DNA from: the human T2T-CHM13v2.0 reference genome, Homo sapiens
Reading direction: 5' to 3' (one strand)
NCBI RefSeq assembly: GCF_009914755.1
Contig: NC_060926.1
DNA: 64,000 nucleotides
This document shows positions 5,146 through 9,169 of the stretch, one piece after another (within the stretch, counting starts at the first letter, position 1; the number at the start of each line of letters is the position of its first letter). The notes under the pieces are model-generated. The model was not told the origin of the DNA and ran no database searches. It saw nothing but the letters and a program-made list of their open reading frames with translations. The translations under genes and the position numbers were made by a program.

Positions 5146-6109
5146 TAAAATAAAATGAACAGTATAATAAAATACACCTCTTAGCTGATTATGTTACTCC
5201 ATCATAACTGGAGACTTTCGAAGTCAGCAAGACCTTAAGACTCAAAGAGAAAAAAGTTATTTAATGAAGCAATAGGTACACTTAATGGGAGACAGGGTGG
5301 AATCTTTTTGGTGTCCCTGAAATCATACAATAAGGGAATCATCATAGTCTCCCCAGATCATACTCCCCAGATTGCCTCCCATTCATATCATATGTTCCTG
5401 CCTCATTAAATGAAAGTGGACTTTTAATAAAAGCAATCCACATTTTACAGTACAGCCCAAAGTTTTATGAGAGAACCACAATAAAAAATGGAAGGTGATG
5501 TGGTAAGAATAGCTGAGAACCTGGCAATTGCCTCTGGTGTAGTACATAGTTGCCCTTCAGATGCCTTTTGCTGGAAAGATCTCTAATTCTGGTCACAAGA
5601 AAAGATCCTCTATCTTTCTGACACAGAATATACACACTTTTTGTAATATCTTAAATCAATACCTGATAGTCCACTAGGCCTCTTTCCTTGGCATTCTATT
5701 AAAATTGAGCTCCTCTCTGTAACTGAATGTTGAACACATCAAGGTGATGGATAGTTCATCAGTCCCTGTTCCCAGGATTCTGGAGGCAAAGTCTCTAGCC
5801 TTCTTGTGGCAAGAAGGAGATTTATGAATCTTTGCCTCAATTCCAGTTTAATCCTCAAGTATCTGCTTTTAAATTGTCGAAGACCTGTAAAGTCTGCCCT
5901 TCATGAAAACAGGAACAGCAGGATGGACACAGAACTGGATCACATTGTAAGGAGACAGAATGATCACTGAATCCCCGTATTTCTTCTGGGATGAGAAGAC
6001 TTCGGTTCTAATTATCCTATTCGTCTGCTCTGTAGTATTGTTTCTGGACTAGAAGATTTTGCCAGTAGAAGGAACACTTTAGCCATGGTCATTGCTTATT
6101 CATTAAATA

Positions 6110-7203
6110 CAGTCATACGCCATGCAATGATATTTTGGTCAACGATGGACCCCATATACGAGGATGGTCCCATAGGATTATAATTGAGCTGATAACTTCT
6201 TATCATCTAGCAACATTGTAGCCACTGTAACACGTAGTGCAACACATTACTCATGTGTTTGTGATGATGCTGGCATAAACAAACGTACTGCCCTGCCAGC
6301 TGTATAAAAGTATAGCACATACAATTCTGTACAGTACATAATACTTGATAATGATAATTAACTAAGTTACTGGTTTATATATTTACTATACTATATATTT
6401 TTTACTATTAGAGTATACTCCTATTTTTTTTTTTAAAGTTAGCTGTAAAACAGCCTCAGGCAAGTTCTTCAGGAGACGTTCTAGAAGAAGGCATTGTTAT
6501 CATAGGAGATGACAGCTCCATGTGTGTTATTGCCCCTGAAGACCTTCCAGGGAGACAAGATGTGAAGGTGAAAGACAGTGAAATTGCTGATCCTAACCCT
6601 GTGTAGGCCTAGACTAATACATGTTGCTTGTGTCTTAGTTTTTTTTTTTTTTTTTTAACAAAATTTAAAAAGTAAAAAATAAAAATAAAAAAATTAAAAA
6701 TTAGAACAAAGGTTATAAAATAAGGATATAAAGAAAGAAAATATTTTTGTACAGCTGTATATGTGTGTTTTGAGCTAAATGTTATTGCAAAAAAGAGAGT
6801 TTTTTTTTTTAAGTTTCTAAGGTAAAAATGTTACAGTAAGCTAAGGTTAATTTATTACTGAAAAAAATTAAAAATCAATTTAGTGTAGCCTAAATGTACC
6901 ATGTTTATAAAGTCTACAGTAGTGTACAGTATGTCCTAGGCCTTCCCATTCACTCACCTCTCACTCACTAACTGAACTCACCCAGAGCAACTTCCAGCCT
7001 GCAAGCTCCATTCGTGTTAAGTGCCCTATACAGGTGTGCCATTTTAAAAAGCTTTTTATAAAGAATTATTACTATACCTTTTCTATGTTTAGATACAAGA
7101 TATTTACCATTGTGTTACAGTTGCCTATAGTATTCAGTACAGTAATATGCTGTACAGGTTTGTAGCCTAGGAGCAATGGCTATATCATACCCTCCAGGTG
7201 TGT
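6110..7203. mobile_element. Tigger3/Golem-family DNA transposon (Tigger3b-like), left ~1.1 kb
   Basis: TA|CAGTCATACGCCATGCAATGA TIR, then GGTCAACGATGGACCCCATATACG..GGTCCCATAGGATTATAAT, GAAGGCATTGTTATCATAGGAGATGACAGCTCCATG and GCCTAGGAGCAATGGCTATATCA. Confidence 0.9.
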
Positions 7204-7224
7204 CTTCACTCAGACATGATCAAG

Positions 7225-7420
7225 TCCCCACTCTACCCCTTGGTCAGTGTCTGATTTTAGACCAACCACTTACTCTCTCTGTGCTTAAGTTCTTATCGTT
7301 ATAATGGCAGCAGCTGCCTCATAGATTTGTGAAGAATAAAAAAGTTACCCCACACCTACTGTTCATAGCAGCGATGAATACATTGTAAGTACACTTTAAA
7401 TGGTACACATTCATATATTG
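7225..7420 (+). mobile_element. MIR remnant upstream of the V1R
   Basis: ACCACTTACTCTCTCTGTGCTTAAGTTCTTATC..TATAATGG..CTCATAGATTTGTGAAGAATAAA resembles the MIR core. Confidence 0.55.
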
Positions 7421-7590
7421 GAAACCTGTTAATAATAGAAAAAACTTCAGCTAATATTTCTAAGTGTGAAACTAATGGTCAGTGAAGAATACTGGATTTT
7501 AGTTGACATTTTAACTGTAGCACAGGCCTCACGTTCCCCTGCGGGTCCTCTGGCTCTGATGATAAATATCGGTCTGTGGGAACTGACAGA

Positions 7591-8527
7591 ATGGCTGCCA
7601 AAGATCTGGCAATAGGAAGGATCTTCTTATCACAGGCTGTGCTTCAAATCCTGGGGAATTTCTGTTTTCTTTACCGTTATCTCTTCCTTTACTTCACTGG
7701 GCTCAGGTTAAGGTCTACAGAGTTGATTATCAAGCACCTGATTGTAGTCAACTCCTTATTCTTCCTCTCTGGAAGAGTTTGGCAGATAATAGCAGTTTTG
7801 GGGTGGAAACCTTCCCTGAGTGATTTCAGATGCAAACTTCTTTTCTATGTTCACAGAGTGGCCGGGGGTGTTTCCACTGGCACCACCTGCTTCTGAGTGT
7901 CTTCCAAGGAATCACTATCAGTCCCAGGAACTCCAGGTGGGCAGAGCTGAAAGTAAAAGCTCCTAAGTACATTGGTTCCTCCATATTCCTGTGGTGGATC
8001 CTCTAAATTGTGGTAAACATCTTTTTTCCTATGTACGTGACTGGCAAATTGAGTAACAAAAACATCACAAAGACAAAAGATTTAGGATACTACTCTCCTG
8101 TTCATCCTGACAAAAGCAGAGAGTCACTCCGTGCCACATTGCTACTGTTCCCAGATGTTTTATGTTTGGGGATCGTGCCAGTGGCATCATGGCTTTCATT
8201 CTTTACAGGAACAAGCAGCAAGTCCAATACATACATAGGACCAATATCCGCCCCCAGATTCTTCCCTGAGTCCAGAGCTACCAAAACCATCCTCCTTCTG
8301 GTGAGTACTTTTTTTTTCAATCAACTTTATGCCTGCTTCTTCAACTTTCAAGTTTGTTTAGCTCTTTTTAATACTCCTGGTTGGCTGATGGTGCACATTT
8401 GTGTAACAACCAAGTCAAGTTTCCCAAATGTCAGCCCTTTGTTCTTAGGAGCAGAGACTCCAATGTATTCAAGCTTTGCTTTTTCTGGGTAAGTAATACA
8501 AAACTCCCTAATCTCAGAAATGTGTGA
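7591..8527 (+). pseudogene. vomeronasal type-1 receptor (V1R/VN1R family, VN1R2/VN1R4-like) pseudogene
   Basis: Translation MAAKDLAIGRIFLSQAVLQILGNF..RLRSTELIIKHLIVVNS..CKLLFYVHRV..GTTC / LSVFQGITISPRNSRWAELKVKAPK / NIFFPMYVTGK..DLGYYS..FPDVLCLG / ILYRNKQQVQYIHR / PESRATKTILLLVSTF / FPNVSP / FVL..CFFW gives the hallmark V1R motifs. Frameshifts at ~7890, ~8177, ~8250 and ~8437; in-frame TAA at 8004-8006. Confidence 0.95.
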
Positions 8528-8533
8528 ATTATA

Positions 8534-8646
8534 TGTGTATGTACAATCTAAGTCTGTATAGGTACAATCTATGATGTTCTCACAATGATGACACCTAACA
8601 ATCCATTGCTGAGAATGTATCCCCAACATTAGGTGACATATGATTG
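8534..8646. mobile_element. Tigger3-family right terminus (continuation of 6110-7203)
   Basis: TACAATCTAAGTCTGTATAGGTACAATCTATGATGTTCTCACAATGATGA..GAGAATGTATCCCCAACATTAGGTGACATATGATTG; its reverse complement CAATCATATGTCACCTAATG resembles the left TIR CAGTCATACGCCATGCAATG. Confidence 0.85.
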
Positions 8647-8667
8647 AAGTTCTATTATCATTGCTGA

Positions 8668-8714
8668 CATCATCATCATCATCATCGTCATCATCATCAT
8701 CACCATCATCATCA
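8668..8714. repeat. (CAT)n trinucleotide microsatellite
   Basis: About 15 imperfect CAT units seen directly. Confidence 0.95.
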
Positions 8715-9169
8715 ATACGCCTGTATTCCAACATAATGTTGGAAGAGAGGACAACTAATGCCTCTCTTAACCTTCTGTAACTCAGAAGAAAAGGGCTCAG
8801 AAGCCAAGGAAGAAAAAGCAGCCAGTCCAAGGCTCAGATCAGCTGCTGGCCCCACAAACTCCATATATACTGTAGGAACTTGATTGCCTTTTTAATTGCC
8901 CAGACAGAATTCTCATGGATTGGCCATGAGAATTTTGGCTCGATTTCACCCGCTTTTATTGAAACTGATAAAAAGAAGTATATACAATAAAAGTGAATTT
9001 TTAGACACAAATATCAAGGTTTATCAGGCCCCAAGCCCTTTCCCCAAGTCAGTCCCCAACTATGACTGTAAGCCAAGGTGAGCAGATATTGTTAAAAGAA
9101 AGGTCACCTCAGGCACACACACAAAATAAAGCTGCATAACAGGCCTTCTAGGGGCCTCCTCCCTATTTA

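What the first reader, a model, noticed from the sequence alone, without database searches (positions are those of the whole stretch)
6110..8646. A whole vomeronasal receptor gene lies inside a Tigger3 DNA transposon (Pack-TIR-like gene capture)
Seen in sequence: the element starts TA|CAGTCATACGCC at 6110, runs to ...CCAGGTGTGT at 7203, stops, and a matching terminal segment resumes at ~8534, ending in the right TIR (...GTGACATATGATTG, 8646). The ~1.33-kb insert between the halves holds ~390 bp of upstream DNA (including a MIR remnant) and the entire V1R CDS, ending only ~7 nt past the reconstructed stop (TGA 8525-8527). Both junctions share TGTGT. There is no polyA tail and no long TSD, which argues against L1-mediated retroposition. 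Established knowledge: Tigger elements are Tc1/mariner-pogo transposons with TA target duplications; TIR elements can acquire host sequence by gap repair (Pack-MULE/Pack-TIR); V1Rs have single-exon CDSs and many dispersed pseudogenes in primates. From recalled consensus, the two Tigger pieces are colinear. Inference: a V1R was copied into a Tigger3b, and possibly moved with it. This would be a DNA-transposon route for dispersing pheromone receptor genes.
Basis: partly seen in the sequence, partly recalled or inferred. Interest (0 to 1): 0.85.

Follow-up and report, generated by a model that had tools for sequence, protein, structure and literature searches.

The report
V1R pseudogene patched into old Tigger transposon
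A dead pheromone-receptor gene copy sits inside an ancient Tigger DNA transposon on human chromosome 2, but it looks like a one-off DNA-repair patch of a kind already catalogued in primates, not a gene that the transposon carried around.

Summary
6110-7203 and about 8548-8646 are two colinear, same-strand parts of one ~1.2-kb Tigger-type TIR element. A profile built from 19 other genomic copies hits the 64-kb window exactly twice (model 8-1118 and 1125-1249), so only 6-15 element positions are missing. Between the parts lies a 1.34-kb unprocessed piece of a V1R locus: 387 bp of upstream DNA, a full-length but broken coding region (VN1R18P, with 4 frameshifts and 1 stop), and 20 nt of 3' flank.

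Two details change. V1R homology runs to ~8547, not 8533. The right-hand TGTGT is V1R-derived, so it is not a target-site duplication.

No other place in the T2T genome shares either junction. 0 of 29 V1R-bearing loci carry Tigger flanks, and the nearest relatives are 75-82% identical. The tiny target deletion, the candidate microhomologies, and the lack of a poly-A tail or TSD fit a transposition-independent break-repair or template-switch insertion into a resident element. That is the single-copy "Pack-TIR" class of Tan et al. 2021 (33-199 human cases, several in Tigger3b). This locus is not among their 33 listed cases. Mobilisation is unsupported. Orthologous loci could not be checked.

The parts
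6108..6109 (.). TA dinucleotide flanking the left terminus (target-site duplication of Tc1/mariner-pogo type). The matching position after the right terminus, 8647-8648, reads AA.
   Evidence: (flanks printed); other copies show TA at both ends in the alignment
6110..7203 (+).
   Evidence: 5867 candidates, copies 74-77% identical; profile positions 8-1118, E 4e-301; 14.3% from the 19-copy consensus
7200..7203 (+). Candidate left-junction microhomology GTGT. These bases match both the Tigger copies and the start of the V1R-locus homology (the chr1 relic reads GTGA here).
   Evidence: chr1 alignment starts at 7200; Tigger copies read GGTGTGT here; chance of >=3 nt is about 0.05
7204..7590 (+). 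387 bp of V1R upstream genomic DNA. It begins inside an old interspersed repeat (MIR-like, by recall only) that the paralogous V1R loci carry at the same place and continue further upstream.
   Evidence: L031 7200-7512 at 82%; L022/L023 from 7211; L024/L025 from 7314; L041 from 7267; six paralogous loci remain alignable to each other upstream of the window's junction
7591..8527 (+). Full-length V1R coding region, pseudogene VN1R18P. It has frameshifting indels near 7889 (-1), 8178 (-7), 8250 (+1) and 8434 (-1), and an in-frame TAA at 8004-8006.
   Evidence: Pfam PF03402, profile 2-279 of 292 in three pieces; tblastn with the intact 301-aa paralog covers residues 1-299 in three frames; indel list
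8528..8547 (+). 20 nt of V1R 3' flank. It still aligns with chr19 paralogs L022/L023, which then continue with unrelated-to-window sequence.
   Evidence: alignment; L022 and L023 matches end at 8547
8538..8547 (+). Overlap zone at the right junction where both V1R paralogs and Tigger copies can be aligned (candidate imperfect microhomology; only the last 2 nt, AT, are exact in both).
   Evidence: Tigger matches begin at query 59-82, i.e. 8538-8561; profile hit starts at 8539
8548..8646 (+). Right terminal ~100 bp of the same Tigger-type element, including the right TIR.
   Evidence: profile positions 1125-1249, E 2e-14; 7 of 19 copies; (termini: 28 of 51 aligned columns identical between the arms, 10 of the first 13)

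Best explanation
A Tigger-type (probably Tigger3b) non-autonomous element inserted here and became a fossil. Later a break, or a stalled replication fork, inside it, about 100 bp from its right end, was repaired by copying in a 1.34-kb stretch templated from a V1R locus on another chromosome. The copied stretch runs from the middle of an old repeat 387 bp upstream of the ATG to 20 nt past the stop. The patch was joined by end-joining or template switching at short microhomologies, with loss of 6-15 bp of the element.

The result is a single-copy 'Pack-TIR' made without transposase. The V1R copy then decayed, or was already decayed, into VN1R18P.

Shown here: the anatomy, the uniqueness of the junctions in this genome, the truncated nature of both insert ends, and the absence of L1 hallmarks.

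Inferred: the order of events, the repair pathway, and whether the template was DNA or a reverse-transcribed unspliced RNA.
For: (1) Colinear halves with only 6-15 of ~1220 positions missing. This is 0.5-1.2% of the element. Tan et al. report a median gap of 4.6% and argue that small internal gaps indicate breaks within resident TEs rather than excision (section 8).

(2) Both insert ends are arbitrary cuts in a larger paralogous unit.
- Six paralogous loci (chr1, four on chr19, chr4) continue to align with each other upstream of the left junction.
- L022/L023 continue with each other downstream of the right junction.

(3) There is no duplicated target, no A-tail and no poly-A signal. The element sequence at the break in other copies is not a TTTT/A site.

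(4) Candidate microhomologies are present: GTG(T) on the left and AT (TACAAT versus TACCAT) on the right.

(5) The structure is single-copy.
- The genome search with the insert scored all 39 candidates, and the best non-self match is 75% identical over the gene and 82% over 314 bp upstream.
- 0 of 29 fetched V1R loci carry Tigger flanks.
- None of 39 scored non-self matches spans the left junction and none of 39 spans the right one.

(6) Dating at the same locus leans towards the insert being younger than the element. The insert branch since its split from the chr1 relic is JC 0.120 (95% bootstrap 0.072-0.176). The element against its consensus is 0.156 (0.133-0.181).

(7) There is precedent. 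Tan et al. list 33 human Pack-TIRs, 199 under relaxed criteria. Two of the 33 are in Tigger3b, and there are whole-exon captures of about 1.3 kb. They conclude that single-copy cases are mostly transposition-independent.
Against: - The dating does not reach significance. In 12% of bootstraps the insert branch is as old as the element, so capture close to the time of Tigger activity is not excluded.
- The microhomologies are short and were read in sequences 12-17% decayed. At least 3 nt arises by chance at about 5% of junctions and at least 2 nt at about 16%.
- No high-identity parental copy exists. The chr1 relic retains only 314 bp and the rest is gone, so the source cannot be named.
- The break lies near one terminus (relative position about 0.10). 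Tan et al. associate that with excision-type repair, although the deletion here is tiny.
- Orthologous loci in other primates and mammals were not available, so the predicted empty (uninterrupted Tigger) state was not seen.
Confidence: 0.75

Rival explanations
1. Transposase-dependent capture (classical Pack-MULE-like). While the Tigger family was still active, excision of an element was followed by gap repair that switched template to a V1R locus. The chimeric element formed in place, or formed elsewhere and then transposed to this chr2 site.
For: - Intact-looking termini, with TA on the left flank.
- The break is near a terminus.
- The age intervals of the insert branch and the element overlap.
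- Cut-and-paste movement need not leave a second copy.
Against: - Only 6-15 bp of the element are missing. After excision, two independent repair tracts would have to stop within a few bases of each other.
- No second copy of either junction exists in the genome, and 0 of 29 V1R loci have Tigger flanks.
- A sister copy would be expected at >=~77% identity, well within the search's reach, since hits down to 64% were returned.
- Only 4 multicopy cases (1.4%) were found in the published survey, none in a mammal (section 7).
Confidence: 0.12
2. L1-mediated retroposition of a V1R transcript (a processed or unspliced retrocopy) into the Tigger, with the poly-A tail and target-site duplication since eroded.
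For: - V1R coding regions are single-exon, so a retrocopy would look like the gene.
- The copy is old enough (about 12% branch length) for some erosion of hallmarks.
Against: - The insert ends 20 nt after the stop, in sequence still homologous to genomic paralogs, with no A-rich tract and no poly-A signal.
- The target lost 6-15 bp instead of being duplicated.
- The element sequence at the break is not a TTTT/A site in other copies.
- The 5' end lies inside an upstream repeat shared by genomic paralogs, and there is no sign of a transcript 3' end.
Confidence: 0.04
3. Chance juxtaposition: two unrelated Tigger fragments happen to flank a resident V1R gene.
For: None found.
Against: - The two pieces abut in family coordinates (1118 then 1125-1134), on the same strand, with similar divergence. 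They are the only two Tigger-profile hits in 64 kb.
- The V1R homology is cut off at both ends exactly where the Tigger sequence starts.
Confidence: 0.01

Closest known systems
Single-copy Pack-TIRs of animals (Tan et al. 2021, Nat Commun 12:4280, PMC8277862), e.g. the human DDI2-exon copy inside a Tigger3b on chr11
   Same: - Host, non-TE DNA is flanked on both sides by colinear parts of one TIR element.
- It is single-copy and interchromosomal, with a small gap in the TE, microhomology at the breakpoints, and a fossil TcMariner host element.
- The element's length (~1221 here versus 1231) and divergence (0.149 versus a median of 0.142) agree with their Tigger3b entries.
   Different: - This locus is not among their 33 listed human cases (Supplementary Data 4 read whole).
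- Its nearest relatives are only 75-82% identical, so it is older than the 'young, with parental copy' cases they required.
- The cargo is an entire receptor coding region plus upstream DNA.
- Whether it is among their 199 relaxed-criteria cases could not be seen. No such list turned up in the readable supplements, and one PDF supplement could not be read.
Class 2 templated sequence insertions (TSIPs; Onozawa and Aplan, PMC5110952, passages read)
   Same: There is no TSD, no poly-A tail and no L1 target motif. There is a microdeletion of the target and microhomology at the junctions, and the donor is on another chromosome.
   Different: - Those are recent polymorphisms, and an RNA-derived patch is favoured for them.
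- This one is fixed and tens of millions of years old.
- Its template type is undetermined.
Pack-MULEs and other Pack-TYPE transposons of plants
   Same: A gene fragment lies between the termini of a DNA transposon.
   Different: Plant Pack-MULEs are often multicopy with distinct TSDs and were mobilised. In Tan et al.'s comparison 36% are multicopy. Here no second copy exists.
L1-mediated processed pseudogenes (class 1 TSIPs)
   Same: An ectopic copy of a gene on another chromosome, now a pseudogene.
   Different: The defining poly-A tail, TSD and TTTT/A target are all absent, and upstream non-coding genomic DNA is included.

Membership tests
Pack-TIR (structure as defined by Tan et al. 2021) | Both flanks are parts of one TIR element, in the same orientation and colinear in family coordinates | tested here: met
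   model 8-1118 and 1125-1249, + strand, the only two hits in the window
Pack-TIR (structure as defined by Tan et al. 2021) | The internal sequence is non-TE host DNA with an identifiable parental copy elsewhere | tested here: inconclusive
   The host origin is clear (V1R locus). The best relatives are only 82% (314 bp, chr1 relic) and 75% (chr19) identical, so no parental copy can be named. The case would fit only their relaxed criteria.
Pack-TIR, transposition-dependent (multicopy) subclass | Two or more copies of the same chimera at different sites with distinct TSDs | tested here: not met
   none of 39 and none of 39 scored non-self matches spans a junction; 0 of 29 V1R loci have Tigger flanks. 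Human T2T genome only.
Tigger3b (Tc1/mariner-pogo, non-autonomous) | Match to the curated Repbase/Dfam consensus | not testable with these tools
No TE library is held. Indirect support: ~1221 consensus positions versus the published 1231 bp, and 14.9% divergence versus the published median of 14.2%.
Tigger3b (Tc1/mariner-pogo, non-autonomous) | Terminal inverted repeats and a TA target duplication | tested here: met
   the arms share 10 of the first 13 nt; TA on the left flank, AA (one change) on the right. Other copies show TA|CAGT...ACTG|TA.
V1R vomeronasal receptor (Pfam PF03402) | Significant full-length match to the family profile | tested here: met
   E 3.7e-21, 2.7e-11 and 2.7e-17 for three pieces covering profile positions 2-279 of 292. 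All are above the 25-bit cut-off. The gene is broken by 4 frameshifts and 1 stop.
L1-mediated retrocopy (class 1 TSIP) | Poly-A tail, a flanking target duplication of >=5 bp, and a TTTT/A target | tested here: not met
   no A-run, no signal; target deleted, not duplicated; target sequence in other copies; the right-hand TGTGT is V1R-derived
Break-repair patch (class 2 TSIP-like) or template switch | No TSD or poly-A; microdeletion of the target; microhomology or short filler at the junctions | tested here: met
   The microdeletion of 6-15 bp and the absence of L1 hallmarks are met. Microhomology is only a candidate: 3-4 nt on the left and 2 nt exact on the right.

The most novel reading that the evidence does not exclude
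The V1R was captured while the Tigger family was still mobile, and the chimeric element transposed to this chr2 site as a true Pack-TIR carrying a complete chemoreceptor gene with its upstream region. Sister copies would survive only in other mammalian lineages or would have been lost in humans. That would be a DNA-transposon route for relocating whole receptor genes in mammals.
Probability: 0.04. Interest if true: 0.7.

Novelty: new member of a known kind. Interest (0 to 1): 0.2.

Why it matters
The locus adds one old, well-delimited example to the catalogue of host sequences lodged inside fossil DNA transposons in primates. The cargo here is an entire single-exon receptor coding region plus 387 bp of upstream DNA.

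It shows how a solitary V1R pseudogene reached chromosome 2, far from the chr19 cluster, without L1 and without a large segmental duplication. It does not open a new mechanism. The class, its frequency in humans and its transposition-independent origin are already in print, and nothing here shows that the transposon moved the gene.

Landing in a DNA transposon is also not improbable by chance. These elements make up roughly 3% of the genome (recalled figure).

Tried and rejected
- Pace and Feschotte 2007, for the age class of Tigger3: not held under the id I tried. Any statement about that paper would be recall, so I make none.
- Positive control with a published human Pack-Tigger3b (the DDI2-derived case). 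I asked for 200 kb around the expected T2T place on chr11. I did not pursue it, so the element's family name is not anchored to a named published copy.
- The rest of the V1R at the chr1 relic. BLAST of 7000-8700 against 9.9 kb around it found only 7200-7512. The relic ends at a 5'-truncated Alu. The chr1 locus therefore cannot serve as a full parental copy.
- TSD reading of the shared TGTGT: rejected, because paralogs show the right-hand copy is V1R flank.
- The 21-nt direct repeat at 8534-8550 / 8555-8571 (D4), considered as a junction duplication. The first copy lies mostly in V1R-derived sequence that resembles the Tigger segment. I treat it as the source of the alignment ambiguity, not as a repair footprint.
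- Dating by molecular clock: done. It is too imprecise to order the events (bootstrap fraction 0.12).
- Literature: 'VN1R18P' gave 0 papers. 'vomeronasal' plus 'Tigger' gave 3 papers, none relevant by title or abstract.
Full report
**What is there**

The window is human T2T chr2:47,988,001-48,052,000.

**The transposon**

- 6110-7203 is a high-copy repeat. A search of the window's own genome found 5867 first-look candidates, of which 40 were scored. I fetched the 19 best non-self copies, which are 74-77% identical.
- BLAST of window 5900-8900 against these 19 copies matched the left part in all 19. In 7 of 19 it also gave a separate match to 8540-8646, always on the same strand and starting 12-53 nt after the end of the left match in the copy. 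The other 12 gave no separate match at E<=1e-3 for this short, diverged piece. Most of them do show the terminal segment in the multiple alignment.
- A profile HMM built from the 19 copies, without the window, and run over the entire 64-kb window gives exactly two hits: model 8-1118 = 6103-7203 (E 4e-301) and model 1125-1249 = 8539-8660 (E 2e-14), both on the + strand.
- On a majority consensus the element spans positions 15-1235, about 1221 bp. The left part ends at 1118, and the right part resumes at 1134 if 8548 is taken as its first base. So 6-15 positions are missing, 0.5-1.2% of the element.
- The window copy differs from the consensus at 14.9% of sites: 14.3% for the left part (n=1070) and 18% for the right part (n=99). 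The other copies have a non-CpG mean of 13.7%, sd 1.6%.
- The termini share 10 of their first 13 nt as inverted repeats. TA flanks the left end, and AA stands where TA is expected on the right.
- The name Tigger3b could not be tested against a TE library. It agrees with the values that Tan et al. list for Tigger3b, a 1231-bp consensus and median divergence 0.142. Repbase lists Tigger3b among Mariner/Tc1 families (PMC5753468, passages).

**The insert**

- Three ORF pieces match Pfam V1R (PF03402) at profile positions 2-94, 93-132 and 136-279 of 292, with E-values of 3.7e-21, 2.7e-11 and 2.7e-17.
- An intact 301-aa paralog ORF from chr19 (locus L025) aligns by tblastn over its residues 1-299, in three reading frames.
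- A nucleotide alignment lists frameshifting indels near 7889 (-1), 8178 (-7), 8250 (+1) and 8434 (-1), in-frame indels near 7622 (+3) and 8319 (+6), and an in-frame TAA at 8004-8006.
- So the coding region is complete in extent but dead, as the annotation (VN1R18P) says.

**Where the insert begins and ends**

A genome search with 7204-8533 scored all 39 candidates. The nearest relatives are:
- two chr19 loci (L022, L023) at 75% identity;
- two more chr19 loci (L024, L025) at 70%;
- a 314-bp stretch on chr1 (L031) at 82% that matches 7200-7512 only.

Left end:
- The chr1 stretch is cut short by a 5'-truncated Alu. No further V1R sequence lies within 9.9 kb of it.
- All six paralogous loci examined (chr1, four on chr19, chr4) remain alignable to one another for some 40-60 nt upstream of the point where the window switches to Tigger sequence.
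- The left end of the insert is therefore an arbitrary cut inside an old repeat that the V1R family carries upstream.

Right end:
- L022 and L023 stay alignable to the window until 8547. In the 22 columns from the stop-codon GA to 8547, 18 are identical to L023. The two paralogs then continue with each other but not with the window.
- The insert therefore runs to about 8547, 20 nt past the stop, not 7 nt.
- The TGTGT at 8534-8538 is V1R flank, not a duplicated Tigger target. Paralogs read TATGT or CATGT there.
- Tigger copies begin to match between 8538 and 8561. So 8538-8547 is an overlap zone in which both sources can be aligned.
- At the left junction GTGT (7200-7203) is likewise shared with the V1R side, where the chr1 relic reads GTGA.
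- By the standard random-junction formula, at least 3 nt of microhomology arises by chance at about 5% of junctions and at least 2 nt at about 16%. These are candidates, not proof.

**What it is not**

- There is no A-rich tract at either end of the insert and no AATAAA/ATTAAA in 8400-8547.
- The target lost bases instead of being duplicated.
- The element sequence at the break in other copies is not an L1 endonuclease site.
- A classical L1-mediated retrocopy is therefore very unlikely.
- Chance juxtaposition of two Tigger fragments around a resident gene is excluded by the abutting family coordinates, and by both V1R ends being cut exactly at the Tigger boundaries.

**Was the chimera mobile?**

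With 7150-7300, 40 of 48 candidates were scored. The 39 non-self matches cover either query 1-54 (Tigger only) or, for chr1, query 51-148 (V1R side only). None spans the junction.
- With 8480-8646, 40 of 258 candidates were scored. All 39 non-self matches start at query 59-82, on the Tigger side only.
- A spanning match would have scored highest and been listed first.
- BLAST of the whole region against the 29 fetched V1R-bearing loci (L022-L050, each with 1.5 kb of flank) found Tigger flanks in 0 of 29. The only hits inside 6110-7203 are two short low-complexity matches.
- A sister copy from the same capture would be at least as similar as the chr1 relic. It would have been found, since the search returned hits down to 64% identity.
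- These searches cover the human T2T genome only.

**Order of events**

The element and the insert now share one locus and one local mutation rate.
- In the non-coding upstream stretch (273 three-way ungapped columns), the window's branch since its split from the chr1 relic, with L022 as outgroup, is JC 0.120 (95% bootstrap 0.072-0.176).
- The insertion cannot be older than that split.
- The element's non-CpG distance from its consensus is 0.156 (0.133-0.181, n=1151). This is a lower bound, because the consensus was built from the copies most like the window's.
- The insert branch reaches the element's value in 12% of bootstraps (K2P values).
- This leans towards the V1R arriving after the Tigger had been resident for some time, but it does not settle the order.

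**Mechanism**

The strongest argument is geometric.
- After excision of a whole element, repair tracts grow inward from both ends. For them to stop within 6-15 nt of each other, 1104 nt from one end and about 100 nt from the other, would be a coincidence.
- A break or a stalled fork inside a resident element gives adjacent ends by construction.
- Small target loss, short microhomologies, no TSD and no poly-A are the marks of end-joining capture or template switching.
- Tan et al. 2021 used the same reasoning. I read the abstract and outline, passages, sections 7 and 8 whole, Supplementary Data 4 whole and Supplementary Data 1 part 1 of 4, and ran a term search over 11 supplementary files. One PDF supplement could not be read.
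- They report 370 Pack-TIRs in 100 animal genomes. Only 4 are multicopy, and none of those is in a mammal.
- For humans they report 33 cases, 199 under relaxed criteria, and 22 of the 33 arose after DNA transposons had become inactive.
- Across their set the median gap is 4.6% of the TE, and 67.6% of cases show microhomology at one or both breakpoints.
- For 91 of 97 primate cases an uninterrupted TE is present at the orthologous site in outgroups.
- Their human list includes two Pack-Tigger3b cases, one of which carries a 1.28-kb DDI2 exon copy.
- The chr2 locus studied here is not in that list. No list of the 199 relaxed cases turned up in the readable supplements.
- The junction features also match class 2 templated sequence insertions (PMC5110952, passages). 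An RNA-derived patch is favoured for those. Whether the template here was DNA or an unspliced transcript cannot be told from this sequence.

**Verdict**

The locus is a Pack-TIR in structure. It is most likely (about 0.75) a single-copy, transposition-independent repair product in a fossil Tigger. It is not evidence that DNA transposons dispersed pheromone receptor genes.
- Transposase-dependent capture keeps about 0.12, and actual mobilisation of the chimera about 0.04.
- The locus is a new member of a known kind and of modest interest.
- No paper in the searched library mentions VN1R18P, and none links vomeronasal receptors with Tigger elements in a relevant way (3 papers, judged by title and abstract).
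- The decisive test, which is the state of the orthologous site in other primates and mammals, could not be run with the genomes held here.

Noticed in passing
window 8664-8713: An (ATC)n/(CAT)n microsatellite of about 50 bp begins 18 bp after the right end of the Tigger element. It reads as poly-Ser/Asp ORFs, which is a repeat artefact.
   Followed up: no
L051 4443-4700 (G000:C1, the chr1 V1R-upstream relic); L022 about 1332-1500 and L023 about 1324-1500: The chr1 relic and the two chr19 paralogs each carry an Alu-type insertion at the same place in the V1R upstream region (window equivalent about 7508-7512, ACATTTT|AAC). The inserts differ in length and sequence, so they look like independent hits on one L1-endonuclease-type site. 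The chr1 Alu lacks its 5' end, and the V1R gene that should follow is gone.
   Followed up: partly
L022/L023 and L024/L025 (G000:C19 56.35-56.58 Mb): The closest V1R relatives come as two recent duplicate pairs. L022 and L023 differ by K2P 0.04. L024 and L025 differ by 0.005-0.03 and lie on opposite strands. Only L025 of these four keeps an intact ORF (301 aa). L027 nearby has a 395-aa V1R ORF.
   Followed up: partly
L051 8121-9059 (minus strand), about 3 kb from the chr1 relic: A 312-aa C2H2 zinc-finger ORF. The V1R-upstream relic on chr1 therefore lies just beyond the end of a KRAB-ZNF-type gene cluster member.
   Followed up: no
window 6420-6440, 6633-6720, 6790-6815: Long T- and A-rich low-complexity tracts inside the Tigger body. 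They produced the only spurious matches to V1R loci.
   Followed up: no
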